Below are positions 2,073-64,000 of a stretch of DNA of 64,000 nt, piece by piece. This DNA is from a virus, in IMG/VR virus record IMGVR_UViG_3300017929_000004, positions 5,566 to 69,565 of that record; one strand, written 5' to 3'. Within the stretch, counting starts at the first letter, position 1. Every line of letters starts with the position of its first letter. The position numbers were made by a program, and so were the translations under genes. Under the pieces are notes generated by a model. That model had not been told where the DNA came from and did no database searches. It worked only from the letters and a program-made list of their open reading frames with translations.

Positions 2073-2086
2073 GTGCAGGTCTGCAC
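2073..2086. repeat. Palindrome GTGCAG-NN-CTGCAC copy
   Basis: GTGCAGGTCTGCAC just after the stop of 2091-2456(-). Confidence 0.9.
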
Positions 2087-2090
2087 TGAA

Positions 2091-2456
2091 TCAGCTAAGG
2101 ATCATCAAACAGCGGGCGCACGGCGCCGGCAGGAGAGGCTTTTTCTGGCGGGCTCCGCAGAACGCGCAGATCATCACGTCGGCCTCGGTGACCCCCGTAA
2201 TCGCCCGCGGCGTCCACTCGAAGTCGCAATCGGGGCAGTGATAAAGCCCGTTGGCATCGCGTCGCAGATGGACGATTTTCCGGCACAGGAGGCAAAGGCC
2301 GAAAGCAAAGTCTTCCATCTCTTGGACGGTGTGAAAGTGCGTTCCCTTGACGCGGCAGGGGAGACAAGTGGGCTCGCCGCAGAAGTTGCAGCGGGGCTGG
2401 CGAACTTCGTTGTGGGTCTCGCAGGTAGAGCACTGGTACTCGTCGATTTGGGGCAT
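2091..2456 (-). CDS. Cys-rich multi-zinc-finger protein
   Basis: Multiple CxxC pairs. Confidence 0.7.
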   Translation of the reverse strand: MPQIDEYQCSTCETHNEVRQPRCNFCGEPTCLPCRVKGTHFHTVQEMEDFAFGLCLLCRKIVHLRRDANGLYHCPDCDFEWTPRAITGVTEADVMICAFCGARQKKPLLPAPCARCLMILS

Positions 2457-2457
2457 G

Positions 2458-2739
2458 TCAGGATCCTTTCTTCGCGTCGAAGGTCTTCAGGTCGTCGATG
2501 ATGGCCCACTTCTCGCGGCGCTGGCCCTGATCGGTCAGCTTGAGGCGGGCAATACGCAGAGCGATTTCCTCGAGTGCCGTGTCCTTCCAAGGCGCAGACA
2601 TAGAGGTGATTGCTGACAGTTCAGTTCGCGTCGGAGCGTCAAAAATTTCCCGGATTTGTTCCACCATCGAAGCGGCACACGGGAATACCACTTCGACGAA
2701 GGTCGGCGGTCCAGGGTTAAACTGCTTTTGTTCTGGCAT
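2458..2739 (-). CDS. Hypothetical protein (MPEQKQFNPG...)
   Basis: AGGAGG RBS before ATG 2739; packs into the operon. Confidence 0.6.
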   Translation of the reverse strand: MPEQKQFNPGPPTFVEVVFPCAASMVEQIREIFDAPTRTELSAITSMSAPWKDTALEEIALRIARLKLTDQGQRREKWAIIDDLKTFDAKKGS

Positions 2740-2998
2740 GGGTTCCTCCTGGCTCAGCATAGAGCCTCTCGATTTCGGTGATTTCCTTGCAGGCGATGCA
2801 GCAATACCCGCCAGCGGGGTCGTCGGAAGACATCCGCGCGTAGACTCCTCGGCAGCCGGGGCACTTCGCCCAGCCTTCCCATATTTGAGGCTCGGCATGC
2901 TTCGCCGCTTTGCAGAGAGACCAAATAACAAGGATGACCACTGTGGCACCCGTGCTGCCCATTCCTGCGAAGAAACTGAGTAGGTCGAAGTGCGTCAT
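2717..2998 (-). CDS. Small membrane-anchored Zn-finger protein
   Basis: N-terminal TM segment, CPGC...CCIAC; overlaps its neighbours. Confidence 0.55.
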   Translation of the reverse strand: MTHFDLLSFFAGMGSTGATVVILVIWSLCKAAKHAEPQIWEGWAKCPGCRGVYARMSSDDPAGGYCCIACKEITEIERLYAEPGGTHARTKAV

Positions 2999-3192
2999 GG
3001 TCTCTTCGCCTCCTTCTCGCAGTTTGTACCACAATACGTCAAGGGGAGCAAGGCTCCCGATCCGCGCGAATCGTAGTGTCGACCGCAACCTGCGCAAATC
3101 GACGTTGCGGGGGCTCTACGGTGAAGGTAGGCCTCGACGGCTCGCAGAATGACGGCGATCCCCAGAACAGACAAAGCGATTTTGATGATCAT
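2995..3192 (-). CDS. Small membrane-anchored Zn-finger protein
   Basis: GAGGAGG RBS; hydrophobic N-terminus; CAGC...CGTNC. Confidence 0.6.
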   Translation of the reverse strand: MIIKIALSVLGIAVILRAVEAYLHRRAPATSICAGCGRHYDSRGSGALLPLTYCGTNCEKEAKRP

Positions 3193-3276
3193 GTGCCTCC
3201 TCGTCGCGCTAATCGCGCTGCCCTACCCCTAACAGACCAGAGGCAGGGCGCCGGGGTTAGCGGCGTGGCATAGGCA

Positions 3277-3681
3277 TCACCTCCTGTTCCTGTTGCCCTC
3301 CTCTTCGATCCAAGCCTTAGCCTCGCTGATCGTGTTGAACCATCGCCTGCGGGGCGTCGCACAGTAGCAGACGGCGTGGACCTTTGGTCCCTCAGCGGAA
3401 TAGTCCGGCCCGTGGCTGTAGGTGAGATAATTCCCCACACTTGAGCGCTCGCGCCAAGCTCCGAGGTTCTCGTCAAATATCGGCGTGTTGGTGTCGTTGT
3501 ACTCTCCAGAAATCCACTTGCTGGCATTGTACTCCTCGCACAGTCTGAAGAGCCAGCCGCGATCACTGGAAGCCCATTCGTCGCTACCTTCTGGTGCAGC
3601 GGCTCGGAATTCCGCCCAAACGGTTTGACGCAAGTCTCCTTGAATCGGTCCTAACTCGATTTCGCGTTGCTCTGTGAACAT
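3277..3681 (-). CDS. Hypothetical protein
   Basis: GAGGAGGT RBS; fits the operon. Confidence 0.65.
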   Translation of the reverse strand: MFTEQREIELGPIQGDLRQTVWAEFRAAAPEGSDEWASSDRGWLFRLCEEYNASKWISGEYNDTNTPIFDENLGAWRERSSVGNYLTYSHGPDYSAEGPKVHAVCYCATPRRRWFNTISEAKAWIEEEGNRNRR

Positions 3682-3693
3682 AATCAAACCTCC

Positions 3694-5943
3694 TCAGAAT
3701 AGGCGAGTTTGGCCGCTCGCCTCGGTGTCGTGGAATAGCGGCGCGCGGCGCTCGAGTTCGCCAGCCTTTGACGTGATGTCCTTCGGCGGTCGGTTGAACT
3801 GTTCGGTAAGGTTCTGGCCGGCGCGTTGCGCCGCGACCTTCTTCTGCTCCTCGATGTGCGGCGCCATGCTTGGAAGGGGCTGGGCGCGTTGGCCTATCGG
3901 CCGATTGTCGACGTCTGGAGTAGCCAAGAAGATTCCCTTCCCAAAGTCGGGAGGCGCGGCGGTGGGCTGCGGGTCGGGCTCGTCGTCCTCGGGGTCGGCG
4001 TCCATCACCAGGAGCACGGTATTAACTCCCGTACCAGACTCTTTGAACGTGTCGGGCGGTAGGACTTCCCATTCTCCGCCCGCCTCGTCGACGAGGGGTT
4101 TTAGCTGCTCGTTCTGGCGCGGACCATTGGCGCAGATGGCCACGAGGCGCCCGCCTGGGCGAAGCATGGTCAGGGCGTGCTTGATATGTTTTATGTCCTC
4201 GCCGTTGGCAAAGGGCGGATTCATCAAAATGAAGTCAAAACCCGTCTGGTCGACGCACTCGAGAAAATCAGAGCAACGAACCTTCACGGCTGGCCACCTT
4301 CGGCGCAACTCCTCGGCTAGGGTTGGGTTAATTTCTATGGCGTGGATCTCGCCCGCGTAGGTAAAAATCTCATTGATAATTGCGCCCGTGCCAGCGCTGG
4401 GCTCGAGGATTCTAAGGGAAGACTCAGCGAAAGGCATTCCAGCAAGTTCCACCATGCGGCGGGCGAGGGCGGGCGGGGTCGGGAATAACTGAGGCGCGCT
4501 TACCACCTTAACCCCTGCTTTCAGGGTCTCGCGCATGGCGTCAAAGGCTTCGGCCTGCGGCTCTACGGTCGGTTCTTTCCATTCGCGCTCGACGGGCTCC
4601 CTGGTGGGTGCCTGTATCTTTGGCGCGGGCTCTGCGGGCGTCGCCTTCGGTGCTGGCGGGTCGACGCGCTTCGCGTCCTCGATGTAAACCAAAACGCTGT
4701 TATAGCCTCCAACAAACATCCCGGACCTTACGCGGTGCTCGCCGTACTTGTCGCTTGCGGGTACAATCCGACTGCCTTTCATGTCGTGATACTTCTTATC
4801 CCACGTCGCGCGACTGACGTGGTGAAAGCCTTCGCCGGGGTAATTGCACATTGGCGGAAGTTTGACAGCGGCCTTGACGGCCTGCGCTTGCTGCTCCGTC
4901 GGTGGCTGATAGTCTCGAATCTCCTCGATGCTGACGACTTTGCAATACCGCGCGTTCGTCGATACGCTGACGATTTTCCCGTCCTTCCGGTTGATGCGTA
5001 GGATCGTAACCCACTCGCCGCGGTCGCGCATGACGCGCCCGCCTAGCTGGATGTCGACCCGATCTGCGGCGAGCCCGCCGGCCTCCGCCAACATGGCGCG
5101 TTCGTACTCTAGGCGGTTTCCGATATGCTGTAACCAGCGGTCGCACCATGCAATAGTGCCACGGTAGGAGGGCAAGGCAAGGTCGCGTGCCTGCTCCGGC
5201 GTTATGATCCCATCGTGTAGTGCGCTCCATAGGCTCATTTCGCCTTCGTATTGGGACGCGGGCACCTCGCGCGGGTACTCGGCCAGCGTAAAGCATTTTG
5301 ACAAGTGATTGTAATTGGCTATGAGTTCGGCGCGCTCTTGGGTGAGTCCCTCGGCGCTCCATTGCTTGATGCCCGTTTCGCATTTGGCTTTGTCGCGTTC
5401 GCGGCTGCGCTGGTCGGCATCGAGTCCCTTGATTCTGCGGGCGCGCACGTCGGCGCGCTCCTTGTACTTCGCGTGTCGGATGGCGCCGGCGGCGCGCTCC
5501 TTCCAGTAGCAAGATTGCTCCCACATCTTAATGGATCGCCGCATCCCGTTCTCGATGCGTTCGGCGTCCTTGCGGGCGTGCTTCTCGCTGTGATGGCCAA
5601 CTAAAATCGGCTGGCCCAGCGGAATATTATCCGCAATGGCAGAAACGGCCTTCCGGGCCTGATCGGCGTCTTTGGCGCGGTGCTGGCTGTAATCGCTGAA
5701 CCGGTCGGCGCGCTCCTCGGCGCGGTCGACGAGCGTCGTGTCCTCGTCGCCAATCTCTCCGGCTAACTCTATCAAGAGGTCCTCGCGGCTTGGGGTCCAC
5801 ATCGGGGCGACGAAAAAGCCTTGTTTCGGTGCCCATATGAAGCCCGCAGCCTTGACGCGGGCGTAAGTCTCCGAGTCGAGCCGAGAGACGGAATACAAAC
5901 GGAGTTTGTTATCCTCGGGTGAATAAGTCGCGGTGTAGATCAT
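3694..5943 (-). CDS. DUF3560-domain protein fused to an N6-adenine DNA methyltransferase
   Basis: TATYSPEDNKLRLY and GQPILVGHHSEKHARKD (DUF3560); ILEPSAGTG (motif I) and DFILMNPPF (motif IV). Confidence 0.88.
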   Translation of the reverse strand: MIYTATYSPEDNKLRLYSVSRLDSETYARVKAAGFIWAPKQGFFVAPMWTPSREDLLIELAGEIGDEDTTLVDRAEERADRFSDYSQHRAKDADQARKAVSAIADNIPLGQPILVGHHSEKHARKDAERIENGMRRSIKMWEQSCYWKERAAGAIRHAKYKERADVRARRIKGLDADQRSRERDKAKCETGIKQWSAEGLTQERAELIANYNHLSKCFTLAEYPREVPASQYEGEMSLWSALHDGIITPEQARDLALPSYRGTIAWCDRWLQHIGNRLEYERAMLAEAGGLAADRVDIQLGGRVMRDRGEWVTILRINRKDGKIVSVSTNARYCKVVSIEEIRDYQPPTEQQAQAVKAAVKLPPMCNYPGEGFHHVSRATWDKKYHDMKGSRIVPASDKYGEHRVRSGMFVGGYNSVLVYIEDAKRVDPPAPKATPAEPAPKIQAPTREPVEREWKEPTVEPQAEAFDAMRETLKAGVKVVSAPQLFPTPPALARRMVELAGMPFAESSLRILEPSAGTGAIINEIFTYAGEIHAIEINPTLAEELRRRWPAVKVRCSDFLECVDQTGFDFILMNPPFANGEDIKHIKHALTMLRPGGRLVAICANGPRQNEQLKPLVDEAGGEWEVLPPDTFKESGTGVNTVLLVMDADPEDDEPDPQPTAAPPDFGKGIFLATPDVDNRPIGQRAQPLPSMAPHIEEQKKVAAQRAGQNLTEQFNRPPKDITSKAGELERRAPLFHDTEASGQTRLF

Positions 5944-5968: not shown

Positions 5969-5982
5969 GTGCAGTCCTGCAC
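5969..5982. repeat. Palindrome GTGCAG-NN-CTGCAC copy
   Basis: GTGCAGTCCTGCAC, 25 nt upstream of ATG 5943(-). Confidence 0.9.
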
Positions 5983-7448: not shown

Positions 7449-7761
7449 GGCGCGCCCCCTTTCCCGTCGTGCAGTCCTGCACTACGGAATCCCCGAAGCG
7501 AAGGAAGGTGAAGCGGCAGGCGGGGCAGGATTTGATGTGCTCCAAGGTTAGAGGCGTCTTGGTGAAGGCGAAGCTTGGGGACTTCGGGCAGGGTTTCATG
7601 TCTGCGGCCTCTTCGAGGAGGAGTATACGGCTGGCATGGCGGCAATCAGGTCCATTGGCACCGGTCTCCCATCGGGACCAAGTTGTGACGGAGATACCGA
7701 GTAGGTTCGCCGCGGCCGCCTGGGTGAGCTTGAGTTTACCGCGAAGGGTTTTCAGGTCCAT
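7441..7761 (-). CDS. XRE/Cro-like HTH regulator
   Basis: LKTLRGKLKLTQAAAANLLGISVTTWSRWETG; AAAGGAG RBS. Confidence 0.85.
   Translation of the reverse strand: MDLKTLRGKLKLTQAAAANLLGISVTTWSRWETGANGPDCRHASRILLLEEAADMKPCPKSPSFAFTKTPLTLEHIKSCPACRFTFLRFGDSVVQDCTTGKGARRG
7469..7482. repeat. Palindrome GTGCAG-NN-CTGCAC copy
   Basis: GTGCAGTCCTGCAC, 20 nt upstream of GTG 7448(-). Confidence 0.9.
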
Positions 7762-8402: not shown

Positions 8403-8416
8403 GTGCAGTCCTGCAC
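8403..8416. repeat. Palindrome GTGCAG-NN-CTGCAC copy
   Basis: GTGCAGTCCTGCAC, overlaps the TAG stop of 8416-8568(-). Confidence 0.9.
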
Positions 8417-12178: not shown

Positions 12179-12525
12179 AATTGAAGGCGCGCGACATCGT
12201 TCCGGGTTGGCCGCGAGGACGATCAACGGAGAATTTTCGGGGCGAATCTCCGGGAGCGAATCGGCGGTACCACGCCAAGCAGGCGGCGATGGTCGAGAAG
12301 TTTAGGTGCCGAGAACTCACCGTCCTCTATCCGCTGGACGGTCTACGCTGGTACCGTGGCTCGTTCTGGGGGCTGCGCTGCGGGCTCTGTGGAGCCGAGT
12401 GGAAGGACGGCAATGCGCCAACCTGCGCTTGCCCACCACATACCGTCATCGGCTTTGGGTACGACGCCGTGCTGAAAACGTGGAGGGGTGTCCTCCGGTC
12501 GGAAGCAGCGAACTTCAATTTCTAG
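12175..12525 (+). CDS. Hypothetical protein
   Basis: ATGA overlap; TAG stop overlaps the palindrome. Confidence 0.6.
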   Translation: MKLKARDIVPGWPRGRSTENFRGESPGANRRYHAKQAAMVEKFRCRELTVLYPLDGLRWYRGSFWGLRCGLCGAEWKDGNAPTCACPPHTVIGFGYDAVLKTWRGVLRSEAANFNF

Positions 12526-12538
12526 TGCAGGTCTGCAC
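12525..12538. repeat. Palindrome GTGCAG-NN-CTGCAC copy
   Basis: GTGCAGGTCTGCAC between a TAG stop and an RBS. Confidence 0.9.
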
Positions 12539-13066: not shown

Positions 13067-13069
13067 AAA

Positions 13070-15810: not shown

Positions 15811-15824
15811 GTGCAGGACTGCAC
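15811..15824. repeat. Palindrome GTGCAG-NN-CTGCAC copy
   Basis: CAGTGCAGGACTGCACTG directly before a GGGAGG RBS. Confidence 0.9.
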
Positions 15825-17208: not shown

Positions 17209-17684
17209 GTCCCGTTTACCCCATCCTTATCGCAGTAGTCGTAATCCTCTGCACGCTGGTTCTTGTCGCTCTGTTTTGCGTCGGAGGTCTTCTACTTTGG
17301 CAGGTCTGGGCGCTCGTCAAAATCAACCGCATCATCTCGGAGTCCGTCGCGGCCCTTGTCGATCCGGTGAAGCAACTGCCGGCGGCCACAGCCAACCTCA
17401 TCAAGGTCTCGACGGAACTCAAGGAATTCCAAGAGGGTGAAGTCAGGCTCATGCGGCAACACATCAAGGCGGTGACGGACCTTACGGGGACCGTCGAAGA
17501 GTTTGAAGGGATGCTCGTGCGTCCGCCTTCTGCCGGAAGTCCGACACCAAGGGTTCGTCGCAGCGCGTCCGTCGCTCCCGCCACCGAGGGGGACGAAATG
17601 GAAATGGAGCAACGGCGAAAAGAATCCACAACGCTTGGGGGAGTTGACGTAAAGGATTTTGGGAAGAATGTTGGGACGGTTTAG
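17205..17684 (+). CDS. Membrane-anchored coiled-coil protein
   Basis: Long N-terminal TM segment; TAG stop overlaps the palindrome. Confidence 0.7.
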   Translation: MSPVYPILIAVVVILCTLVLVALFCVGGLLLWQVWALVKINRIISESVAALVDPVKQLPAATANLIKVSTELKEFQEGEVRLMRQHIKAVTDLTGTVEEFEGMLVRPPSAGSPTPRVRRSASVAPATEGDEMEMEQRRKESTTLGGVDVKDFGKNVGTV

Positions 17685-17697
17685 TGCAGGACTGCAC
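17684..17697. repeat. Palindrome GTGCAG-NN-CTGCAC copy
   Basis: TAGTGCAGGACTGCACTG. Confidence 0.9.
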
Positions 17698-18834: not shown

Positions 18835-19425
18835 ATGAAAAACCTGATTTTAGGACTATTGTTTGGATTGCTTTTCTCGCTGGTCGGCTTCGGGCAGGAA
18901 GCCTACGTGGTTTCACTCAAGCCAGACGACGCGATGAAGGCGAAGGCCACCTACGACAAGTTGCAGCAGGCCCAAAAGGATTGGGCCGATACCCAAAAGC
19001 ACATCGCCCTCAAGTACCTCATCGTCGAGCCCACAGACCCCGAGGCATCGGATAAGCACTATGTGGGAGAAACGGACACTGGGATTAACATCTCTTCGTC
19101 AGGAACGCTGTCGAGCGGCAACCTCGCTTTGCGGTATATAACAACGATAGGCGGAAATCAATCTGAACCCACGAAAGAGGAGATTGCCCAACAAACCAAA
19201 GAAGAGAAAGCCTACATCGAACGATTCAACCGCGAGAAGCGCCAACGCAAAGGATTCGATGGGAATTGCTCAAACTGCCTGCCGAAGTTCGAGTTTACCC
19301 ACGACTTCAAGTTCATCGTGCCTTCGAAGCCAGAGGTAAAGGCGCCAGTCTCGCCGTTCTATCTTTCGCCGGCTGCGAAGACTTTGACGACCGACGATAG
19401 TGGTAGTGCAGGCCTGCCGTGGTGA
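18835..19425 (+). CDS. Exported hypothetical protein
   Basis: Signal peptide MKNLILGLLFGLLFSLVGFG. Confidence 0.7.
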   Translation: MKNLILGLLFGLLFSLVGFGQEAYVVSLKPDDAMKAKATYDKLQQAQKDWADTQKHIALKYLIVEPTDPEASDKHYVGETDTGINISSSGTLSSGNLALRYITTIGGNQSEPTKEEIAQQTKEEKAYIERFNREKRQRKGFDGNCSNCLPKFEFTHDFKFIVPSKPEVKAPVSPFYLSPAAKTLTTDDSGSAGLPW

Positions 19426-23566: not shown

Positions 23567-24184
23567 ATGGAGCAAGAAACCTACCAGACAATCGAAGTCG
23601 AGGTTCCCCGGTCACAACTGATTATCCTGCGCAAGCTCTTCAACGGCGCGGCGGTGAAGGACGCCATCCAGAAGTGCGTTGAAACCTTCACAGCGGGTTG
23701 GCAGGCTGGGATTGAACTCACAACGGAAGGCATTACGGCGATCAGCAATCTGCTGAACGTGCGGAGTTTCAACTCTGAGGCATCGCTCATCGAGGCGATT
23801 CAGAAGCGGTTCAACATGGGGCCAATGACCGCCATCATCGAACTCGACGGAAACCTCGCTGCGGCCATCAAGCGAGTGGCGGCGGGGAACAATATCACGG
23901 TCAACGCATGTCTGAGGAATTACGTCCAGGCGGCGTTCGCGTCGGGGTACTTCAATCAGCGCATGAACCTGCAATCCCTCTTCTTCAGTCCGAAAGAGTG
24001 GGAGACTCTCAAAAAGGCACTTGGCGAGGTTCCCTCGACGGGCGGGAATGTAGCAAGCATCGTTGCTGAGTGGAAGGCGCTAAAAGCTCTTCCTGTTCCG
24101 CCGGTGCAGGGCTGCATTGGAGAACCAGAAGCAGTCCCGGATCCCGATGCTGTAGATCCATTGGGGGATATTCCGAGATTCTGA
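23567..24184 (+). CDS. Hypothetical protein
   Basis: GAGGAGG RBS. Confidence 0.7.
   Translation: MEQETYQTIEVEVPRSQLIILRKLFNGAAVKDAIQKCVETFTAGWQAGIELTTEGITAISNLLNVRSFNSEASLIEAIQKRFNMGPMTAIIELDGNLAAAIKRVAAGNNITVNACLRNYVQAAFASGYFNQRMNLQSLFFSPKEWETLKKALGEVPSTGGNVASIVAEWKALKALPVPPVQGCIGEPEAVPDPDAVDPLGDIPRF
24104..24117. repeat. Palindrome copy, 1 mismatch, intragenic
   Basis: GTGCAGGGCTGCAT. Confidence 0.6.
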
Positions 24185-24480: not shown

Positions 24481-24963
24481 ATGCCAGTTTGGGACCTAAT
24501 TTGCAAAGACTGTGGGTACGAGAGGGATGATAAGTTCTTCGCGACGATAGCCCTTTCGGAAGTTCCACAGCGTTGTCCAGATTGTCGTGGGATTCTCGAT
24601 AAGAAAACTCCAACCGTTTGCTTCCAGCCGTTCAAGCCGTTTTTTACCCGGAATATTCGCAAGGACGGTTCCGAAGTATACGTTCGTGACCGCGCGCAAC
24701 TTCGCCAACTGATGCGCGAAGAGCACCTTGTCTTCCACCCCTACAACGATTCTCCAGAGTCCAAGATGGACCCACGGGAGAAGCAGGCCGAGGCTGAGGC
24801 GAGGAAGCGATTCCCGGCCCGGTACAAGAAGCTCAAAGAAGATGTGGCGGTGCTCACGAAGGAAAAGACTGAGCAAGTCGCCGTGAAGGCGCCGAATTTT
24901 GGGTTGGGACCCGATGGGAGAAGGGTTCCAACGCTTCAAGAAAGGCTACAGAAGCAGGCGTAG
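24481..24963 (+). CDS. FmdB-like zinc-ribbon protein
   Basis: MPVWDLICKDCG...CPDC. Confidence 0.75.
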   Translation: MPVWDLICKDCGYERDDKFFATIALSEVPQRCPDCRGILDKKTPTVCFQPFKPFFTRNIRKDGSEVYVRDRAQLRQLMREEHLVFHPYNDSPESKMDPREKQAEAEARKRFPARYKKLKEDVAVLTKEKTEQVAVKAPNFGLGPDGRRVPTLQERLQKQA

Positions 24964-24976
24964 TGCAGGCCTGCAC
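24963..24976. repeat. Palindrome GTGCAG-NN-CTGCAC copy
   Basis: TAGTGCAGGCCTGCAC between a stop and an RBS. Confidence 0.9.
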
Positions 24977-28557: not shown

Positions 28558-28571
28558 GTGCAGTCCTGCAC
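28558..28571. repeat. Palindrome GTGCAG-NN-CTGCAC copy
   Basis: GTGCAGTCCTGCAC abutting a GAGGAG RBS. Confidence 0.9.
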
Positions 28572-31241: not shown

Positions 31242-31267
31242 GCCGCAGTGCAGGGCTGCACTGCGGC
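31242..31267. repeat. Extended palindrome copy
   Basis: GCCGCAGTGCAG-GG-CTGCACTGCGGC (core 31248-31261). Confidence 0.9.
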
Positions 31268-37178: not shown

Positions 37179-37192
37179 GTGCAGTCCTGCAC
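37179..37192. repeat. Palindrome GTGCAG-NN-CTGCAC copy
   Basis: TAGTGCAGTCCTGCACTG abutting a GGAGG RBS. Confidence 0.9.
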
Positions 37193-51244: not shown

Positions 51245-52000
51245 GTGCCTTACACGAATATCAGCTTCGCGAACTTGAAGACCCTTCTTAGGGCGAGGCT
51301 ACAGAACTCCCTGTTTTACACTGACATTGAGATAGCTGAGTTCTTGAATGAATGTTTTTCGCTCCTACAGATCGGGAGCCTGTATTGGAAATCGCGGTTC
51401 CAAGCGCAGTCTGTTGCGGGCCTTGTCTTTTATGACCTCTCAAGTTTGGCTGGAACTCTCGACGACAATGGAAATCCCCAAATCCTGATGCCGTTGCGCG
51501 TAGCGTTCAATCAATCTCCACTCGACTTCTGTGCGATAAGCGATCTTGACAATGGGGGAATCAGCAATTGGCAGACGCAAACCACGGCTACCGCCGGCGC
51601 TCCCGATGTTCCGCAGCTTTGGGGGACCGTTGGATTGAACTTCTTATATCTTTGGCCTTCCGATGCCGTTGGAGGGAACGACCTCCAGCTTGATTGCGCT
51701 GTACGTGCGCCGCACTTCGCGACGGACGGGTCTGACGACGCCCTCAAAGTCAACATCGAGTCGGGCATGATACCGGCGATGCTTGACTACTGCCAGCACA
51801 TCGCGCAGATTAAGCGAGGAGCGGGGCAGATAGCGGCCACGATGCCGAAACTCAAGAGCTTTTTCAGGCTTATCGCCCAGACGAACTCGATGTTCGCTGC
51901 TTCTTCAATTTTCAAGGAAAGCTACGCTCTCCAGACGGAGAGAAAGGCTCGCACACGGGGAGACATAACCGGCGTTCCTACCCCTGCGAGATTTCGGTAG
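51245..52000 (+). CDS. Putative tail adaptor/tubular protein
   Basis: SFANLKTLLRARL..FYTD.EI.EFLNE; LYLWP; extended -10 TGGTAGAAT 6 nt upstream. Confidence 0.7.
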   Translation: MPYTNISFANLKTLLRARLQNSLFYTDIEIAEFLNECFSLLQIGSLYWKSRFQAQSVAGLVFYDLSSLAGTLDDNGNPQILMPLRVAFNQSPLDFCAISDLDNGGISNWQTQTTATAGAPDVPQLWGTVGLNFLYLWPSDAVGGNDLQLDCAVRAPHFATDGSDDALKVNIESGMIPAMLDYCQHIAQIKRGAGQIAATMPKLKSFFRLIAQTNSMFAASSIFKESYALQTERKARTRGDITGVPTPARFR

Positions 52001-52013
52001 TGCAGGACTGCAC
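52000..52013. repeat. Palindrome GTGCAG-NN-CTGCAC copy
   Basis: TAGTGCAGGACTGCACTG between a stop and an AAGGAG RBS. Confidence 0.9.
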
Positions 52014-52870: not shown

Positions 52871-55800
52871 TGTCTGTACCGCTACTGCCGTATCAAACGA
52901 AGTACGAGAACGCTGGTCTCATCCTCCGGCGCCCGTCGGATCTCGTTCCTCGCGGTCAGTACATCATCCTCAAGAACCTATTCTCTGCCCAAGAAGGCTC
53001 ACTCCGCCCGCGCTTCGGAACGAAGAAAGTCAACGCGAACGTTCTTTCCGACCTTGCCATCCACAGCCTCGGCTACCTCAACGATCCTGTGCTCAAGAAG
53101 GCCCTACTCATGGCAGGCGCAGGGAAGAAGCTCTACCGACTCGACACTTCGGCGCAAATCGATGCTGGCTATTCTGGCGACCCGATCTCGATGGTTGCCT
53201 ACCGGATGAACCAGAGTTCGTCACCATTCATGATCGTCGGTGACTCGGCGCAAATGCGGCTCATCGACTCTTCGGGGAACGCGAAGAAACTCGGCCTGAG
53301 CTTTCCTACGGTTGCTACGAATTCGATTGTCCAAGGGCCTCCCATCAACGAAATCCACGAATTCGAGACAGATCCGCCGTTCATTCTGGCGAACATGGCC
53401 AGCCACAGCGTAGCGGCAACTTTCGCGAATGGGGTTGCCGCGCAGAGTGGGAAAGCGTTGCAGGTCACGACGAATGCGGGCGTTGTGGCGACCATCAGCC
53501 TCGTCGCTTCACTCAACTTGGGAGTGCTATCTGGGGTTGCCGTGGGGGATTCGGACTACATCCACATCTGGATCAACGTGGACAATCCACTCAACATCTC
53601 GCAAATTCGCCTCTTGTTCGACGTGGACCCCAACAGCGTCTCGGCGGGAACCTTCACCGCGACGGCATTCAAGAACAACTTCTATTGGGCGAGCATTCTG
53701 GGGTCCGACTTGCAAGCGGCCACACAGGGCACGACGACGACCATAGCGGGATTGCAGGCTCAATTGGCGAACTTGCAGGCGCAGTTACAGACAGCGGAAG
53801 CCAGCGGATGGTTCCAGCAGATACAGGCCCTACAACAGCAAATCTCCCGGCTCGAACAGACGATAAACAACCAGACTTTTGCCGGCCAGTTGCAGTGGAC
53901 CGAATTCAAAATCCCCATCAATAATTTCTTTAGAGCCGGCGGGAACCAAGCCGTGAACTGGTCGAATGTTGTGGGATGGAGAATCGAAATCACCACCGTG
54001 GCAGCGGTCGCCGCAGTATGCACCTTCGACGCGATGTACGAATTCGGAGGCTTGGGGCCAGACTCAAGCGTTGGCGTGGGATACGATTGGCGGTACACCG
54101 ACTACGATGACACGACGGGTTCCGAGGGGAACCCCTCACCGCTTCAAGCGAACGCACCGCCAACTGGAACCGGAACTGCTGTTGTGCGCAGCGCCGTCGC
54201 TCTCTTTCCGGCAGTATCGACGAACACGCGATGCACTCGACGTTACCACTACCGCCGCGGAGGAACCCTCTCCGCATCGTGGCAACGGTTGGGATACCAG
54301 TTGAACGTCGCGCCAGCGGCAATCACAACAGTCGTTATCAATGGTGCAGGGCTCTGTACGGTCACTACGGCTGCGCCCCACGGATTCCCAAACGGCTCCG
54401 CCGTGCTGGTTTCCTGCCCAAGCGGTGGAGTTGTCAGCGGCGTCGTCAGTGGGATGGTGCTCTCGAATTCCCCACCTGGAAGCTGGACACCAGGACTTAC
54501 GGGCGGGACACTTTACGCGCAATCGACCTTCATCACGTTGGCAGGAGCACAGAATCCCGGTCCAGCACCTTTCCCAACATTCGGCTCGAAAGTCAGTTGG
54601 TTATTCTACAACTCGATTTCAGGGTATTATTATTCACTCACGTCGACGCCGACAGCATTCGATGACTGCTTGATTGGCGTGGTTCGGGCCTCGCTGCGTG
54701 GCGGCACAACGATAGTCTCCCAGGCCGCTGCTTTCTACCAAATCTTTGAAACCATCACCGTGACCGGCCTGAGCACATTCACGGCTCCACTGACTGGAAC
54801 GGCGGTCACTTACACTGGCGGCACGGCGACACTCGGTTTCTTGGACTTCTACGCCGATGCCGACATCGCTTCGGCGCCATCGCTGCTCTTGACCAATGAT
54901 GTGCCCGTTACTACAGTTGATTCGACTGGGGCAACCGTTTACGAGCAACCGTTGAAGCGAATCTGGGGACCTTATCTCGGCAGCGTCATCTTCGGCTGCG
55001 GCGACCCGAACCGGCCGGGATACCTCTACTGGCTGAACGCGGGGAATCCCGACGGAGCCTCGTCGATCAACAATGTCGAAACGACGCAGCCCAGCGACCC
55101 CCTGCAGAACGGCTTCTTCTGGGGCGGCTTTACGTGGGTCTTCAGCAAGGAAAACCTGTTCACCATCTATCCCGCGCAGTTGGGGATCCCCAACCAGTAT
55201 CAACCTCTTCCGTCCGCCTGCGCGCGTGGGCTTTCTTGGTCCGACTTGTGCTTCGCTGCGGGGCCAGACACGCCGGCAATCTGGTTCCTGTCGAAGGACG
55301 GCATCTACGAGACCATGGGCGGGCCGGCAGTCCCCATCACTGAAGACGACCTCTGGCCAATTTTCCATGGCCTTGCGTCCGGGCCTTACGTGCCCATCGA
55401 CTTCACGCAGACCGAAATGCTCAGGATGGCGTACCGGGACAATGAGCTTTTCTTCCAGTACCAAGACATCAACCAGGGCATCCAAGTCCTTGTCTGGAAC
55501 CGACTCAAACGTAGATGGCGCCACGCGACGTACCCATGGGGACCGCTTTGCCTCTATGCCCAACCCGAGGTTGGAAACATCTTGCTACTGGGCGGGAATA
55601 ATGGTTTGTGCTACCAAGAGGACCCCTCCGTCGGCGGCGACGACAGCCAGCCGATTGCCTGCCAAGTGCGCAGCGGGTCATACGACCAGGGGTTGGCGCT
55701 GCGCGCGAAGGAGTACGTGCATTTCATCCTCGACGCGGACCCCCAAGGCGCAAGCATTTCGGCGAGCCTGCTGTACAACGACCAGACGGTTAGTGCAGGC

Positions 55801-56298
55801 CTGCAGTGCGGGCCATTCGTTTCGTCGGGAAGTGGCCGCCAGCCGTTGCCGTTCGGGCTCAATGACTACTACGCGCTCAACGCGATGGTGGATGTCAGCT
55901 TCACGACGGTCGCCGTGCCCGTGCTTTACGGGTTCGAGTTGGACTACCGCATCGATCGGCTGGCGATGGTCCATATCGAGACGCCCGAGGATTCCTTGGG
56001 AATCGACGGCTGGAAGCACGTCTATGACGGGTACATCACGGTGCGGTCCAATGCCGACGTGAGCCTGATTCTGATGGGCGACGGCACGGCGATTGGCGCG
56101 ACGACAGTCATCCCCTCGACGGCTGGGCAGAAGAAAAAGACGCTTCTGCAATTTGGGACGAATAAGTTCAAGCTGCTGCGGAGAAGGCTCGACAGCACGC
56201 AGCCGTTTCAGGTGTATGCTGAGGATAGCGTGCTGCACGTCGGCGGGTGGGCCGACGGCCAATACCGCAACGTACCACTCGTCGAAAACGTGGAGTGA
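52870..56298 (+). CDS. Putative tail nozzle/stabilisation (tubular B-like) protein
   Basis: 1142 aa; GSLRPRFGT, FLSKDGIY beta-propeller-like motifs; position. Confidence 0.7.
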   Translation: MSVPLLPYQTKYENAGLILRRPSDLVPRGQYIILKNLFSAQEGSLRPRFGTKKVNANVLSDLAIHSLGYLNDPVLKKALLMAGAGKKLYRLDTSAQIDAGYSGDPISMVAYRMNQSSSPFMIVGDSAQMRLIDSSGNAKKLGLSFPTVATNSIVQGPPINEIHEFETDPPFILANMASHSVAATFANGVAAQSGKALQVTTNAGVVATISLVASLNLGVLSGVAVGDSDYIHIWINVDNPLNISQIRLLFDVDPNSVSAGTFTATAFKNNFYWASILGSDLQAATQGTTTTIAGLQAQLANLQAQLQTAEASGWFQQIQALQQQISRLEQTINNQTFAGQLQWTEFKIPINNFFRAGGNQAVNWSNVVGWRIEITTVAAVAAVCTFDAMYEFGGLGPDSSVGVGYDWRYTDYDDTTGSEGNPSPLQANAPPTGTGTAVVRSAVALFPAVSTNTRCTRRYHYRRGGTLSASWQRLGYQLNVAPAAITTVVINGAGLCTVTTAAPHGFPNGSAVLVSCPSGGVVSGVVSGMVLSNSPPGSWTPGLTGGTLYAQSTFITLAGAQNPGPAPFPTFGSKVSWLFYNSISGYYYSLTSTPTAFDDCLIGVVRASLRGGTTIVSQAAAFYQIFETITVTGLSTFTAPLTGTAVTYTGGTATLGFLDFYADADIASAPSLLLTNDVPVTTVDSTGATVYEQPLKRIWGPYLGSVIFGCGDPNRPGYLYWLNAGNPDGASSINNVETTQPSDPLQNGFFWGGFTWVFSKENLFTIYPAQLGIPNQYQPLPSACARGLSWSDLCFAAGPDTPAIWFLSKDGIYETMGGPAVPITEDDLWPIFHGLASGPYVPIDFTQTEMLRMAYRDNELFFQYQDINQGIQVLVWNRLKRRWRHATYPWGPLCLYAQPEVGNILLLGGNNGLCYQEDPSVGGDDSQPIACQVRSGSYDQGLALRAKEYVHFILDADPQGASISASLLYNDQTVSAGLQCGPFVSSGSGRQPLPFGLNDYYALNAMVDVSFTTVAVPVLYGFELDYRIDRLAMVHIETPEDSLGIDGWKHVYDGYITVRSNADVSLILMGDGTAIGATTVIPSTAGQKKKTLLQFGTNKFKLLRRRLDSTQPFQVYAEDSVLHVGGWADGQYRNVPLVENVE
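55793..55806. repeat. Palindrome copy, 1 mismatch, intragenic
   Basis: TAGTGCAGGCCTGCAG. Confidence 0.6.
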
Positions 56299-61402: not shown

Positions 61403-61412
61403 GAGGGGTGCC

Positions 61413-61712
61413 ATGGGATCAGGACCGGGACTTTACAATCCAGGTGCGTATGGCGGGCGGACGGCTGCAAGTGGAGGGCTTGCCGCATCGCAAGCAGCGA
61501 TTGGTGGAATCAAAACCTACGTGGATGAGCGCAAGAAGAAAAAGGGTAATGCGCTAAGGTTGAAGGGTCCTTCCGACTACCCTGACACGCCAAGTTTCAA
61601 CCGTGGTGGGGAGGTTCACAGAACTGGAATTTATAAGCTTCACGCCGGCGAGAGGGTCGTTCCAGCGGGAAAGCGCAAAACTCGCAAGCGAGGGCGGGGT
61701 TCTCGTCGTTAG
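61413..61712 (+). CDS. Small protein with a GGxVxxTGxxxLHxGExV motif and basic tail
   Basis: AGGAGG RBS; motif familiar from phage internal/tape-measure proteins. Confidence 0.65.
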   Translation: MGSGPGLYNPGAYGGRTAASGGLAASQAAIGGIKTYVDERKKKKGNALRLKGPSDYPDTPSFNRGGEVHRTGIYKLHAGERVVPAGKRKTRKRGRGSRR

Positions 61713-61725
61713 TGCAGGACTGCAT
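61712..61725. repeat. Palindrome copy, 1 mismatch
   Basis: TAGTGCAGGACTGCAT between a stop and a GGGAGG RBS. Confidence 0.8.
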
Positions 61726-61737
61726 TGGGAGGTTGTC

Positions 61738-63045
61738 ATGGGCGGATACGATCCGAGAGCATACGGTGGCAGAGGTCCGGTGAGCGGACCCGTCGCCGGG
61801 ATGAATTACCTCACTTCGCTTCTCTCTGGACTCAAGCAGGGCTTCCACCAAAAGCGGGACAACACGGAAATGAAATTCGGCGAACGTGTCAAAATCATCG
61901 AGGCTCAACGCGCCGAAGCGCGCGCACGGATTGAAGCTGGTGACACGTCTCCCGAGGCGGTGCAGGCTGCGGCGAATGCCGACAAAGCCTACGCCGACAT
62001 GCTCAAAGAGGCCGAGAAGCTTTACCAACCCGACAAGACCATTTGGGGTGCCCTCAAGAATCGCATTTCGGGAGGGAAAAAGGCTGATGCGGGTGGTCCG
62101 CAACCGGCGCCTGTGCCAAAGGCTCAAGGCGCTCCAGCGGCAGCTAGACCTCCAGAGGCTTCGCCGAACCCCTACGGCGCAATGGAAGCGTCGAGGGCCA
62201 AAGCAACGGCGACCGTCAGAGACATAAATGAACTTAAGGCGTCCGTCGAGAAGGGAACCTTAGAGGACGACGCCAAGCAGCGTGATGTTATCAAGACATC
62301 TCAGCAAACCTACATCGACACGATTCAGAAAATGAAGACTGGCGCAATCTCTCCCGGAGAAGCGGCACAAACAATTACCTTGGCGATGAATCAAGCCTTT
62401 CCAAAAGAAAGGCCAGGAGAGAAGGAAGCGATTTCCGCACTTTCTATGGGACTGGCAAATACCAAGGACCCACAGAAGCGAGCGGAATACCAACAAGCGA
62501 TCATCGACATCGCGCAGGGCATAAAGTTGGAAGCGGGAAAAGCGCTTACGGGACCAGTCAAGTACCCGACCGGAAAAGTTGCCGAGTCGATTCAACGCGC
62601 GGGGCTCCCCATCAAACCTCTGAGCGAATACACTACAGAGGAATGGAATCTGGCCGACAGCGTCTCGCAAAAAGAACACAAGGAAGTCATGCGCAAGGCT
62701 GCTGCGACGGCTGGGGCGCATGATCATCGCTACCAGCAGTTCCAAGCGAGAACAGCGGGAGACACGCAACTGATTGGAAGGCTTGAAACCCGCATCGGAC
62801 AACTCCAATCGCTTACAGCTAGTGATATGAACAGGCTTTCTGACGATGAGAAGAAGGCCAATAAGGAAGAAGTCTCCGCTACTCGTTCGCAAATCATCGA
62901 ACTACGACAGAAAGATTCATCGGCCTATGACGAAATCTACGGTGCAGCGCCGAGGCTCGTAGCGACCCCTCCGGCAGCCGCAACGCCTGCGCCTCCGCCG
63001 ACGGCTGGCGTGAGTCCCGCCGAGGCCCAAGCCGACCAGTTCTAG
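61738..63045 (+). CDS. Putative internal virion (ejection) protein
   Basis: GGGAGG RBS; charged helical protein. Confidence 0.65.
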   Translation: MGGYDPRAYGGRGPVSGPVAGMNYLTSLLSGLKQGFHQKRDNTEMKFGERVKIIEAQRAEARARIEAGDTSPEAVQAAANADKAYADMLKEAEKLYQPDKTIWGALKNRISGGKKADAGGPQPAPVPKAQGAPAAARPPEASPNPYGAMEASRAKATATVRDINELKASVEKGTLEDDAKQRDVIKTSQQTYIDTIQKMKTGAISPGEAAQTITLAMNQAFPKERPGEKEAISALSMGLANTKDPQKRAEYQQAIIDIAQGIKLEAGKALTGPVKYPTGKVAESIQRAGLPIKPLSEYTTEEWNLADSVSQKEHKEVMRKAAATAGAHDHRYQQFQARTAGDTQLIGRLETRIGQLQSLTASDMNRLSDDEKKANKEEVSATRSQIIELRQKDSSAYDEIYGAAPRLVATPPAAATPAPPPTAGVSPAEAQADQF

Positions 63046-63054
63046 TGACCACTC

Positions 63055-64000
63055 ATGGGCGGATTCAAACCACTGTCGCCGGAAGATGTCACCTCCATCA
63101 AAAAGGTGACTGAATCTCCCGACTACATTTCTCAACCCAACCAAGCGAAAGTCAGCCAAATTTGGAAGGCGTCGAAGACCTTCCAGCGGTGGTCGCCGAA
63201 CGACCAAATGGCGTTCGTCAGGGCATTGGACAAGAAGGTGCGCGCGAGGAAGCCCAAGGCTGCGCCAGCACCGACCGCTGCGGCCCCTACCGCCGTGCCT
63301 CCGCCGAAGCCTCAAGCCGCGCCAGCGCAACCCGTCGCGGCGCACGCGCCGGTCGTCCCGACCGCCGCATCGACGCCCAGTGCAGCCCTGCACCAAGAAG
63401 CGCCGAAGCCTTACGCCAAGGAACGCTTACTGGCTACGCCAGCCACAAGCCAGCCCTCTATGATTGGGCCGCGGGAACCCGGATTCTGGCAAAGGATGTG
63501 GGAAACGGTACGTGGTAGCCCAAATTACCCCACGGCGATGAGCAAAGCGCTCGGCGAGCCAAGCGAAGAGACCTTCCCGCCCCTGATCCAGCCAGCAGCC
63601 CTGTTCACGAATATGGGCTACAAGCCCACGACGGCTTCTCGAATGGCTGGAGGCCTTCGTGATGCGGCTGAATTTATGGGTTCGTTGACCGAAGTACCGA
63701 ACATCGAACTGATCGCCGCAGGTGGCGGTGCCGGAACGATTGCTGGCAAGATATTCGGGAAGATTGGTGGGTCCGTCGTTTCCCGACTCGTAAGTGCTGG
63801 ATTTGGAACGCAGTTACTCTACGGACTTTGGAAGTCGCTACCAGAATTCAAGAAAGCCCTCCAACGGGGCGACGAAGTGTCCGCAAGGAACATCGCCATC
63901 GGTGCGGGTCTGAGCGGCTATTTCGGGGTTACAGCGCTTGCCCACGCAGCGGGGATGGTAGGGATGGAGGCGACAAAGGAGCAAGCACCGAAGGAAACAC
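63055..64000 (+). CDS. Large putative internal virion protein, 3'-truncated by window edge
   Basis: MGGFKPLSPED...; Pro/Ala linker; appears open to the edge, so absent from the ORF track. Confidence 0.6.
   Translation, partial: MGGFKPLSPEDVTSIKKVTESPDYISQPNQAKVSQIWKASKTFQRWSPNDQMAFVRALDKKVRARKPKAAPAPTAAAPTAVPPPKPQAAPAQPVAAHAPVVPTAASTPSAALHQEAPKPYAKERLLATPATSQPSMIGPREPGFWQRMWETVRGSPNYPTAMSKALGEPSEETFPPLIQPAALFTNMGYKPTTASRMAGGLRDAAEFMGSLTEVPNIELIAAGGGAGTIAGKIFGKIGGSVVSRLVSAGFGTQLLYGLWKSLPEFKKALQRGDEVSARNIAIGAGLSGYFGVTALAHAAGMVGMEATKEQAPKET
63380..63393. repeat. Palindrome GTGCAG-NN-CTGCAC copy, intragenic
   Basis: GTGCAGCCCTGCAC. Confidence 0.8.

What the first reader, a model, noticed from the sequence alone, without database searches (positions are those of the whole stretch)
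2073..63393. Genome-wide palindrome GTGCAG-NN-CTGCAC marking stop/RBS junctions in both early and late genes
Seen: 13 exact copies (2073, 5969, 7469, 8403, 12525, 15811, 17684, 24963, 28558, 31248, 37179, 52000, 63380), three 1-mismatch copies (24104, 55793, 61712) and degenerate ones just before the genes at 19429 (19406) and 25598 (25572). Twelve fixed bases give about 0.004 expected copies in 64 kb at equal base frequencies. Most copies lie 9-31 nt upstream of a start codon, often abutting the Shine-Dalgarno sequence. In six (8416-, 12525, 17684, 24963, 52000, 61712) the upstream gene's TAG supplies the first G. Inference: a genome-wide operator network analogous to mycobacteriophage stoperators or start-associated sequences (candidate binders are the Arc-like 6888-7193 and HTH 7441-7761 proteins). 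Alternatives are an RNA hairpin GUGCA-GNNC-UGCAC controlling processing or reinitiation, or a cassette-exchange site. Copies were counted by eye, so some may be missed.
Basis: partly seen in the sequence, partly recalled or inferred. Interest (0 to 1): 0.88.

Follow-up and report, generated by a model that had tools for sequence, protein, structure and literature searches.

The report
Shared palindrome punctuating phage gene junctions
A 14-base palindrome sits between the end of one gene and the ribosome-binding site of the next many times over in this peat-soil phage, and the very same sequence does so in several unrelated phages, so some unknown factor must read it.

Summary
GTGCAG-NN-CTGCAC occurs 13 times in the window (0.02 expected) and 14 times in the 69.6-kb phage genome. 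It makes up 14 of all 28 perfect 6-N2-6 palindromes there. Eleven of the 14 copies lie in gaps between genes or overlap a stop codon, usually 9-31 nt before a start codon.

New here: the same motif is multi-copy and non-coding in at least three further phage lineages that share almost no proteins with this one. They are B, C (131 kb, 71% GC) and D (about 82-kb temperate phages). This scan had already noted the motif on a D-type genome (e1-5887612/26, not followed up).

Between orthologous sites the 12 arm bases stay fixed, the centre changes freely and the spacer can be 2 or 3. I saw no compensatory stem change. So it is read as sequence, not merely as a fold.

It is not an intrinsic terminator, not a sigma-70-type promoter or an operator at one, and not a host repeat in the genomes sampled. 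It does not mark recombination breakpoints preferentially.

I put a DNA site for a two-part binding protein at about 0.4 and a protein-read mRNA hairpin at about 0.33.

The parts
2073..2086 (-). exact copy, 4 nt after the stop of the last gene of the leftward operon (2091-2456), where the two transcription directions converge
5969..5982 (-). exact copy between the stop of 5989-6291 and the start of the DUF3560-methyltransferase gene 3694-5943 (25 nt before the ATG). It shares its following 23 nt, RBS included, with the copy at 24963
7469..7482 (-). exact copy inside the last 14 codons of the HTH ORF 7441-7761, 20 nt before the GTG of ORF 7239-7448
8403..8416 (-). exact copy overlapping the TAG of 8416-8568, 31 nt before the ATG of 8141-8371
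12525..12538 (+). exact copy overlapping the TAG of 12175-12525, 14 nt before the start of 12553-12804
15811..15824 (+). exact copy at the 3' end of a 125-nt gap, 15 nt before the ATG of 15840-16160
17684..17697 (+). exact copy overlapping the TAG of 17205-17684, 57 nt before the Acb2/Tad1-like gene 17755-17967
19406..19419 (+). 2-mismatch copy in the last codons of 18835-19425, 9 nt before the ATG of 19429-20118
24104..24117 (+). 1-mismatch copy (last C is T) inside the 3' part of 23567-24184
24963..24976 (+). exact copy overlapping the TAG of ORF 24469-24963, before the gene 24999/25014-25577 that precedes the 647-aa gene 25598-27541 (no family hit)
28558..28571 (+). exact copy at the 3' end of a 130-nt gap, abutting the RBS, 13 nt before the ATG of 28585-28860
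31248..31261 (+). exact copy 26 nt after the major capsid gene (30169-31221). Here the palindrome extends to 11-bp arms (-21.4 kcal/mol as RNA)
37179..37192 (+). exact copy 11 nt before the ATG of 37204-37755, 30 nt after the stop of the 790-aa gene
52000..52013 (+). exact copy overlapping the TAG of 51245-52000, followed by AAGGAG and an ATG
55793..55806 (+). 1-mismatch copy inside the 1142-aa gene 52870-56298; possibly chance or a relic
61712..61725 (+). 1-mismatch copy (last C is T) overlapping the TAG of 61413-61712, 12 nt before the ATG of 61738-63045
63380..63393 (+). exact copy inside ORF 63055-end, read as S-A-A-L-H. The copy at genome base 139 is read in the same frame as S-A-G-L-H

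Best explanation
The palindrome is a recognition site read base by base by a protein. The most likely form is duplex DNA bound by two half-site readers, one on each inverted GTGCA(G) arm, joined flexibly enough to accept a 2- or 3-bp centre. The sites lie in the only free DNA a phage has, the short gaps between a stop codon and the next ribosome-binding site. Occupied sites would gate read-through from one cistron into the next, as a roadblock or 'stoperator'-type control inside long operons rather than as an operator at a promoter. No phage protein is common to the lineages that carry the identical site. For lineage D the candidate is the degenerate HNH-AP2 gene that diverges from the early leader carrying two sites.

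Shown: the excess, the placement, the fixed arms with a free centre, and the sharing between lineages.
For: Fixed arms, free centre. I counted 64 distinct sites in lineages A-D (66 minus the 2 of G010, rejected). Among them and their 1-mismatch variants I saw no pair of compensating changes.

Orthologous D sites. Of the site-by-genome comparisons whose alignment spanned the motif, 39 kept all 12 arm bases and 6 did not. The centre changed (GA/GT/GC, AA/AT, TT/CT, TGA/TGT/CCT) and the 15-nt flanks were 57-100% identical.

Flanks. Their complementarity is a weak consensus, not site-by-site covariation: 135 pairs against 127.9 +/- 8.6 in permutations, p 0.23.

Coding avoidance. 11 of 14 copies are non-coding in G000 (P 3e-8). 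In contrast, 106 of 120 chance copies in bacterial genomes lie inside long ORFs.

D leader. Two sites lie in the leader of the first early gene in all four D genomes, opposite a gene with HNH_3 (1.2e-8) and a weak AP2 match (0.064). AP2 domains that bind GTGCAC are on record for Plasmodium (abstract of PMC11417369). That is a resemblance only.

Precedents. For the Cluster O 17-bp dyad repeat the authors inferred dimeric protein binding from the same kind of pattern (PMC4351075, section 8 read). For ESAS the authors also found little support for mRNA hairpins (PMC3203893, passages).
Against: Spacer length. It differs (N2 against N3) at one orthologous site, G011 against G004/G008/G012. Eight of 30 distinct D sites are N3. 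That is awkward for a rigid dimer.

No shared reader. No DNA-binding protein is shared by lineages A, B, C and D. The only regulator-like protein shared by A and D, an RHH, has no motif at its own gene.

No promoter nearby. There is none at 15 of 16 G000 sites.

Pull towards the RBS. In three of the four G000 gaps of 55 nt or more the site sits 11-15 nt before the ATG (15811, 28558, 37179; the exception is 31248). In G000 a 33-nt motif-plus-RBS module is duplicated, and in G003 the RBS region after the motif is conserved. These suit an mRNA element better.

Mismatch direction. By my own reading, 5 of 7 arm mismatches at junction sites would be G-U pairs on the transcript.

No host regulon. None showed in 401 Acidobacteriota genomes, though the host is unknown.
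Confidence: 0.4

Rival explanations
1. An mRNA hairpin is the functional form: a 5-bp stem GUGCA/UGCAC with a 4- or 5-nt loop, between the stop codon and the RBS. A sequence-specific RNA-binding protein or endoribonuclease, probably of the host, binds or cuts it. This sets cistron boundaries, mRNA stability or translation of the next gene.
For: Every site lies in a transcribed junction of a long operon. The site abuts the RBS in many G000 cases and is duplicated together with the RBS. A loop of 4 or 5 nt accounts for the N2/N3 variants and for changes at arm positions 6 and 9 (7 one-mismatch G003 sites, G001, G012). RNAfold folds the core in its context (-4.7 kcal/mol alone, -5.7 to -21.4 with flanks). 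The longest extension stands right after the major capsid gene. By my reading, 5 of 7 arm mismatches are G-U compatible on the transcript.
Against: Ten stem bases are invariant in 64 distinct sites of unrelated phages without one compensatory change. Base-specific reading of a Watson-Crick RNA stem with a free loop is unusual (my own knowledge). The loop letters show no common orientation: GA is preferred in G000 and TC/TT in G003 on the transcript. No RNA data were available. The core hairpin is weak.
Confidence: 0.33
2. The unit spreads between and within phages as a small mobile or recombination element (homing-endonuclease or recombinase site, linker for module exchange). It persists with little function of its own.
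For: A unit of about 20 bp is present between the same two genes in G012 and G008 and absent in G004, with aligned flanks. The same 14 bases occur in lineages with no common proteins. HNH endonuclease genes are present in G000 and next to the D leader. Cluster O repeats are reported to mediate deletions (PMC4351075 section 8).
Against: Homology breakpoints in D are no more frequent at motif junctions (11 of 17) than at others (52 of 76), Fisher p 0.78. Orthologous sites are kept over about 20-25% sequence divergence with untouched arms, which indicates selection. No recombinase or HUH transposase was seen near the sites (not every ORF was scanned).
Confidence: 0.1
3. The motif is a promoter, possibly hairpin-type as in N4, for a phage-encoded or phage-modified RNA polymerase, giving each gene a short leader.
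For: It stands 9-31 nt before start codons and is highly conserved as phage-specific promoters are. N4 virion RNA polymerase uses short hairpin promoters (recalled, not from a call).
Against: No RNA polymerase family was found in the 11 ORFs of 435 aa or more scanned with Pfam or PHROGs. A palindrome gives no direction. One site lies at the converging ends of two operons with no gene after it (2073). In D the sites lie downstream of ordinary -10 elements (my reading).
Confidence: 0.05
4. The motif is a host REP-like repeat, an intrinsic terminator, or chance.
For: Some D sites are flanked by A- and T-runs. A few bacterial copies are terminator stems.
Against: Chance is excluded. None of the 7 exact sites in window 1-20000 is among the 27 terminator-like sites, and G000 uses a classic terminator elsewhere (32517-32593). 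The 120 bacterial rows returned hold one copy each, except one row with two. 401 Acidobacteriota genomes hold 0-3 copies each, about as many as of the reversed control. The one outlier is an IS-like 1.1-kb repeat.
Confidence: 0.03

Closest known systems
17-bp dyad repeat TGTTCGG-NNN-CCGAACA of Cluster O mycobacteriophages (Cresawn et al. 2015, PMC4351075; section 8 read)
   Same: Both have perfect inverted arms that never vary and a variable centre. Both occur in tens of copies per genome, mostly in short intergenic gaps or at gene starts, and mostly away from promoters. Both are absent from the host chromosome, show loss and gain of single sites between relatives, and have an unknown reader.
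   Different: The sequence, arm length (7 against 6) and spacer (3 against 2 or 3) differ. The Cluster O site is reported in no other mycobacteriophage, whereas this motif is shared by at least three lineages without common proteins. The Cluster O repeats flank deletions; here breakpoints show no preference.
Stoperators of mycobacteriophage L5 and other Cluster A phages
   Same: Many copies of one short site lie in short intergenic regions of both early and late genes, often at stop codons. They act, in L5, within operons rather than at promoters.
   Different: L5 sites are asymmetric 13-mers with one orientation relative to transcription. They are bound by the phage's own repressor, which co-varies with them. 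Here the site is a palindrome and no repressor is shared.
Start-associated sequences and extended SAS of Cluster K mycobacteriophages (Pope et al. 2011, PMC3203893; passages read)
   Same: A conserved element lies immediately upstream of start codons of a subset of genes. ESAS is an inverted repeat with a variable spacer, is lost or kept as a whole unit, has an unknown function, and showed its authors little support for an mRNA hairpin.
   Different: SAS is an asymmetric 13-mer tied to the translation start. ESAS arms are imperfect 17-mers with 4-13 bp spacers and differ between subclusters. Here the arms are perfect 6-mers and identical across lineages.
Conserved inverted repeats (CIR) bound by the repressor of Streptomyces phage phiC31 (recalled; my search found no paper on it)
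   Same: A palindromic operator is repeated many times through the early region of a temperate phage, as in lineages C and D.
   Different: The phiC31 sites belong to that phage's own repressor and lie next to its early promoters. No such link was found here.

Membership tests
L5-type stoperator | asymmetric site with a fixed orientation relative to transcription | tested here: not met
   The site is a perfect palindrome. The centre letters and flanks show no orientation common to the lineages.
L5-type stoperator | many copies in short intergenic regions of early and late operons | tested here: met
L5-type stoperator | bound by the phage's own repressor, which blocks elongation | not testable with these tools
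   No shared regulator was found. Binding needs experiments.
Cluster O-type dyad repeat | invariant inverted arms, variable centre, tens of copies, mainly intergenic | tested here: met
   G000 has 14 exact copies plus 4 one-mismatch copies.
Cluster O-type dyad repeat | the sequence TGTTCGG-N3-CCGAACA and restriction to one phage cluster | tested here: not met
   The sequence is different, and the motif is present in lineages A, B, C and D.
Cluster K SAS/ESAS | element immediately upstream of start codons and tied to the RBS | tested here: met
   Lineage A: 15 of 21 sites against 25% of random positions. Lineage D: 12 of 30 against 17%.
Cluster K SAS/ESAS | asymmetric 13-mer SAS, with imperfect 17-bp inverted repeats and a 4-13 bp spacer upstream | tested here: not met
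   Here the arms are perfect 6 bp and the spacer is 2-3 bp. No second conserved element was seen in the aligned flanks.
Intrinsic (Rho-independent) terminator | stable G+C-rich hairpin followed by a U-run | tested here: not met
   None of the 7 exact sites in window 1-20000 is listed among the 27 terminator-like sites. The core is only -4.7 kcal/mol. I see no T-run after the G000 sites. Some D sites do have T-rich tails.
Structured RNA element | base pairs kept through compensatory changes | tested here: not met
   No compensatory change was seen in the arms. Flank pairing is not site-specific (p 0.23). Rfam has no hit at the sites.
Host REP-like dispersed repeat | hundreds of intergenic copies in the host chromosome | tested here: inconclusive
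   It was not seen in 401 Acidobacteriota genomes, in 5 further genomes or in 120 bacterial rows.
Operator at sigma-70-type promoters | the site overlaps or abuts -35/-10 elements | tested here: not met
   15 of 16 G000 sites have no promoter-like match within 120 nt. The two 11-of-12 promoter matches in window 1-20000 carry no site. This was a consensus scan only.

The most novel reading that the evidence does not exclude
Phages of unrelated lineages, living in the same kind of habitat and perhaps on related hosts, have converged on or exchanged one 12-base 'punctuation mark'. A conserved host factor reads it as a short hairpin or as two flexible half-sites at cistron junctions. It would be a trans-lineage signal that lets the host machinery, or a phage hijacking it, switch, process or silence dozens of phage genes at once. 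It might also replace a phage-encoded repressor in the temperate D phages. There I found no regulator other than a degenerate HNH-AP2 gene among the 10 early-region ORFs scanned. Earlier first-reader notes that see no CI/Cro pair there are unchecked.
Probability: 0.25. Interest if true: 0.8.

Novelty: new variant of a known kind. Interest (0 to 1): 0.6.

Why it matters
Dispersed intergenic palindromes have been described in single phage clusters (Cluster O, ESAS). Their readers and functions were still open in the papers read here. This motif offers a better handle. The identical 12 bases are kept in at least three phage lineages that share no regulator, differ in G+C by 14 points and differ in lifestyle. 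Whatever reads it is therefore either a host factor or a strikingly convergent target. The placement is also informative: in gaps just after stops or just before ribosome-binding sites, and inside operons rather than at promoters. That would show how uncultivated soil phages gate gene expression within long operons. The motif also gives a simple sequence tag for linking metagenomic phage contigs that may share a host.

Tried and rejected
Identity of the phage. There was no DNA or capsid-protein match in the 50,697 deposited phage records.

Host.
It gave single, mostly coding, chance-like copies.
- L097 (6 near-copies) is a repetitive protein gene.
- Of 401 Acidobacteriota genomes, 104 have a match, with 0-3 copies each and the reversed control similar.
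- The outlier G247 holds 9 copies of one 1.1-kb, 99.8-100% identical repeat.
- The peptide deformylase look-up in the protein atlas gave no host signal.
- Other phyla were not scanned.

Expression. No RNA holder was listed for window 24000-33999; all 24 runs are DNA from peat or wetland metagenomes. Laying contigs of 4 runs on 12000-31999 gave 6 single-letter differences and 2 small indels, none in a motif. That has no power.

Reader.
- RHH: only its own cluster was found with the whole protein. With the 2-row alignment only nine 63-65-aa proteins came back; I take them for D-type by their length and by two contigs of 82-83 kb, but did not check this. Three D loci came from viral contigs. G007 has none of the motif but is a 26% fragment.
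- HTH: no relative in other lineages. One search used a wrong frame for the HTH and is void for it.
- The AP2-like gene of D has no relative in A, B or C.
- Pfam on 30 further G000 ORFs found no other clear DNA-binding domain. It gave only sub-threshold zinc-ribbon and treble-clef matches.

Other checks.
- G010 ('lineage E') was rejected: its two copies lie in an inverted duplication of a coding stretch.
- L414/L436, a 30% G+C contig, holds three copies (two in L414, one in L436). The two examined are the stem of a repeated hairpin + T-run + TATAAT cassette. This is a different thing.
- CsrA-type GGA loops were rejected: the loop letters are not conserved.
- TAG-specific function was rejected: TAG is 22 of 80 stops, and several others overlap an SD (TAGGAGG).
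- Literature search for the motif itself found nothing relevant among the 20 papers listed. The search for phiC31 CIR found nothing usable. No supplements were opened.

Full report
1. What is there

The window is bases 5566-69565 of a 69,565-bp virus record with 56.6% G+C. No deposited phage resembles it in DNA or in the capsid protein. Family searches give these genes:
- a terminase with an inserted Hint domain;
- a major head protein;
- two large methyltransferase-type proteins;
- a DnaB helicase and a peptide deformylase;
- HNH endonucleases;
- a small HTH protein and a weak Arc-like protein.
Most large late proteins have no family.

One leftward operon runs from about 8800 down to 2091. 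Nearly everything else is read rightward. The DNA occurs in many peat and wetland metagenome runs, and no RNA run was listed.

2. The observation

GTGCAG-NN-CTGCAC occurs 13 times in the window at exactly the stated places. Shuffles give 0.02. The genome holds a 14th copy at base 139.
- At up to two mismatches there are 22 matches against 3.4 expected.
- The copy claimed at 25572 has three mismatches (sequence).
- The motif accounts for 14 of the 28 perfect 6-N2-6 palindromes in the genome. No other arm recurs.
- Eleven of 14 copies lie outside genes or overlap only a stop codon. At most 12.6% of the genome is non-coding by my crude gene calls (P = 3e-8).
- Six upstream ORFs end in a TAG whose G starts the motif. 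TAG as such is not special: it is 22 of 80 stops, and others overlap an SD as TAGGAGG.
- Oriented by the local genes, all 14 copies are preceded by A. The SD often starts 0-5 nt after the motif.
- In lineage A, 15 of 21 sites have an SD, a start and an ORF within 60 nt, against 25% of random positions.
- In three of the four G000 gaps of 55 nt or more the motif sits at the RBS end: 15811, 28558 and 37179. The exception is 31248.

3. It is not private to this phage

A relative, G001 plus G006 (capsid 79% identical), has 7 exact copies, mostly at other junctions. At the junction syntenic with 28558 it has GTGCA-GTAAA-TGCAC.

Four scans of the viral contig collection with fixed centre letters, followed by whole-record counts, found these multi-copy carriers:

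| Record | Size and kind | Copies |
|---|---|---|
| G002/G005 | 9 and 20 kb | 4 and 5 exact |
| G003 | 131 kb, 71% G+C | 6 exact + 7 one-mismatch, all within 62.5-82.8 kb |
| G004 | 83 kb, terminal repeats | 7 exact + 3 with a 3-base centre |
| G008 | 41 kb | 7 + 3 |
| G012 | 82-kb provirus with an integrase | 8 + 2 |
| G011 | 6 kb | 2 |
| G009 | near-identical to part of G000 | 2 |

The reversed-pattern control was 0 in every one of these records.

All-against-all protein comparison sorts them into lineages A (G000, G001, G006, G009), B (G002, G005), C (G003) and D (G004, G008, G011, G012).
- A and B share a few proteins.
- A against C shows no match at 1e-5.
- A against D shows one ORF match at 1e-5.
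- C against D shows none at 1e-5, but one protein at about 2e-9 with the more sensitive phmmer search.

G010, first taken for a fifth lineage, is an inverted duplication of a coding stretch and was dropped. Notes of this scan had already recorded the same palindrome in the early region of a D-type genome (e1-5887612, e1-5887626), without follow-up.

In C and D the sites are confined to one operon of small genes of unknown function. In D that operon starts with two sites in its leader. The leader lies downstream of what I read as back-to-back -10 elements. In G000 the sites are spread over both operons and the late genes.

4. Sequence or structure?

I counted 64 distinct sites in A-D (66 less G010's two).
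- I saw no compensatory pair of changes in the arms.
- One-mismatch variants hit mostly the outermost (1/14) or innermost (6/9) positions.
- Complementarity of the flanks is raised at positions 1-5 (0.38-0.56 against about 0.25). It is no higher than when left and right flanks of different sites are paired (135 against 127.9 +/- 8.6, p 0.23). So it reflects a weak extended consensus (A...T; in C, GA...TC; in D, A-runs and T-runs), not covariation.
- Between D genomes that differ by 20-25%, orthologous sites mostly keep all 12 arm bases. Of the comparisons whose alignment spanned the motif, 39 kept the arms and 6 did not. The centre changes freely and the flanks are 57-100% identical.
- At one orthologous site the spacer is 3 in G004, G008 and G012 and 2 in G011.
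- One unit of about 20 bp is present between the same two genes in G012 and G008 and absent in G004.

Fixed arms with a free centre point to a protein reading bases. The tolerance for N2/N3 and for changes at positions 6 and 9 suits either a hairpin with a 5-bp stem or two loosely coupled half-site readers.

5. What it is not

Intrinsic terminator. None of the 7 exact sites in 1-20000 is among the 27 terminator-like matches. The core hairpin is -4.7 kcal/mol. The phage has a classic terminator elsewhere, at 32517-32593.

Operator at sigma-70-type promoters. Of 16 G000 sites, 15 have no promoter-like match within 120 nt. The two 11-of-12 promoter matches in window 1-20000 (8855 to 8828 and 6683 to 6656, minus strand) carry no site.

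Preferred recombination boundary. In D, 11 of 17 junctions with the motif and 52 of 76 without it coincide with a homology breakpoint (p 0.78).

Host repeat, in what I could sample.
- The bacterial scan returned 120 rows at its limit, each with one copy (one row with two).
- 106 of those 120 copies lie inside long ORFs.
- 401 Acidobacteriota genomes hold 0-3 copies each, like the reversed control.
- The single outlier is an IS-like repeat.
The host remains unknown, so this refutation test is only partly done.

6. Who reads it?

Arc-like protein of G000. It has relatives (40% identity over the RHH domain) in G004, G008 and G012 only. My reading is that the shared residues are largely those generic to the family (own knowledge). 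There is no motif or other inverted repeat in its promoter region and none near the D genes.

HTH protein. It has no relative elsewhere.

Degenerate HNH-AP2 gene of D. The gene that diverges from the site-bearing leader has an HNH_3 match and, by eye and by a weak Pfam match, an AP2-type DNA-binding domain. AP2 domains that bind GTGCAC exist in Plasmodium (abstract of PMC11417369). That makes the protein a reasonable candidate for D. It has no relative in A, B or C.

No reader common to all lineages was found. The alternatives are a host protein, different readers that converge on one site, or a shared fold hidden from sequence searches.

7. Verdict

The element is real, strongly selected and placed at cistron junctions.

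DNA reading (0.4). I put a protein-read DNA site first, acting as a gate or roadblock inside operons. The reason is the base-by-base invariance of both arms with a free centre.

RNA reading (0.33). A protein-read mRNA hairpin next to the RBS is close behind. The reasons are the placement next to the RBS, the duplicated motif-plus-RBS modules, the N2/N3 tolerance and the 11-bp-arm version behind the capsid gene.

Other readings. A mobile or recombination element (0.1), a promoter (0.05) and a host repeat, terminator or chance (0.03) follow.

Comparison with what is known. The kind of thing is known from Cluster O repeats, ESAS and stoperators (stoperators recalled). New here are the identity of the site across unrelated phages and the flexible centre. 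I therefore file it as a new variant of a known kind, with an unidentified reader.

Noticed in passing
window 17755-17967 (+): A 70-aa gene matches the Acb2/Tad1 hairpin domain (PF24729, E 1.2e-6, 29 bits against a cut-off of 27). It is a likely sponge for defence signalling nucleotides. It follows the motif copy at 17684.
   Followed up: no
window 12837-12926 (+): Rfam scores a 90-nt tRNA here (43.7 bits), but ARAGORN calls no tRNA in the window. It lies in the gene-free stretch 12805-13792 that another note of this scan describes as an array of tRNA-like units.
   Followed up: partly
window 20127-23534 (+): The 1135-aa terminase large subunit carries a Hint domain (residues 613-664), so it probably holds an intein. 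The relative G001 aligns on both sides of that region.
   Followed up: no
window 16157-16702 (+) and genome bases 2841-4154: There is a phage-borne peptide deformylase (E 2e-34) and a DnaB-type helicase (E 2e-86).
   Followed up: no
window 63055-64000 and genome bases 1-480; G009 (L202): One ORF runs over the record's ends through a Gly-Ser repeat. G009 matches genome bases 1-4801 at 99.9% and then continues with different sequence. The end-to-end junction of this record may therefore not be a true circle, or variants differ there.
   Followed up: partly
window 32517-32593 (+): A classic intrinsic terminator (13-bp G+C-rich stem, then a T-run) follows the gene 31914-32516. The phage therefore uses ordinary terminators besides the palindrome.
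   Followed up: no
G003 82,900-83,060 (L032 about 2900-3060): There are nine tandem copies of a 17-base unit next to the start of the site-bearing operon, looking like replication-origin iterons. Most genes of that operon also share a conserved GATCAGGAGACA ribosome-binding region.
   Followed up: no
G004 71,400-71,560 and the same place in G008, G011, G012: A structured leader with several hairpins lies between what I read as back-to-back -10 elements and the first two palindromes of the early operon. It might be an antitermination-type RNA (my reading only).
   Followed up: no
G247 (nine places; L400-L408): An acidobacterial genome holds nine 99.8-100% identical copies of an element of at least 1.1 kb. 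Each has GTGCAGTACTGCAC about 90 nt from one end. It looks like an insertion sequence.
   Followed up: partly
L414 and L436 (one 25-kb viral contig, 30% G+C): The same palindrome occurs three times on this contig. In the two copies examined it forms the core of a repeated hairpin + T-run + TATAAT cassette. This resembles the terminator-promoter cassettes of T4-type phages (that comparison is recalled).
   Followed up: no
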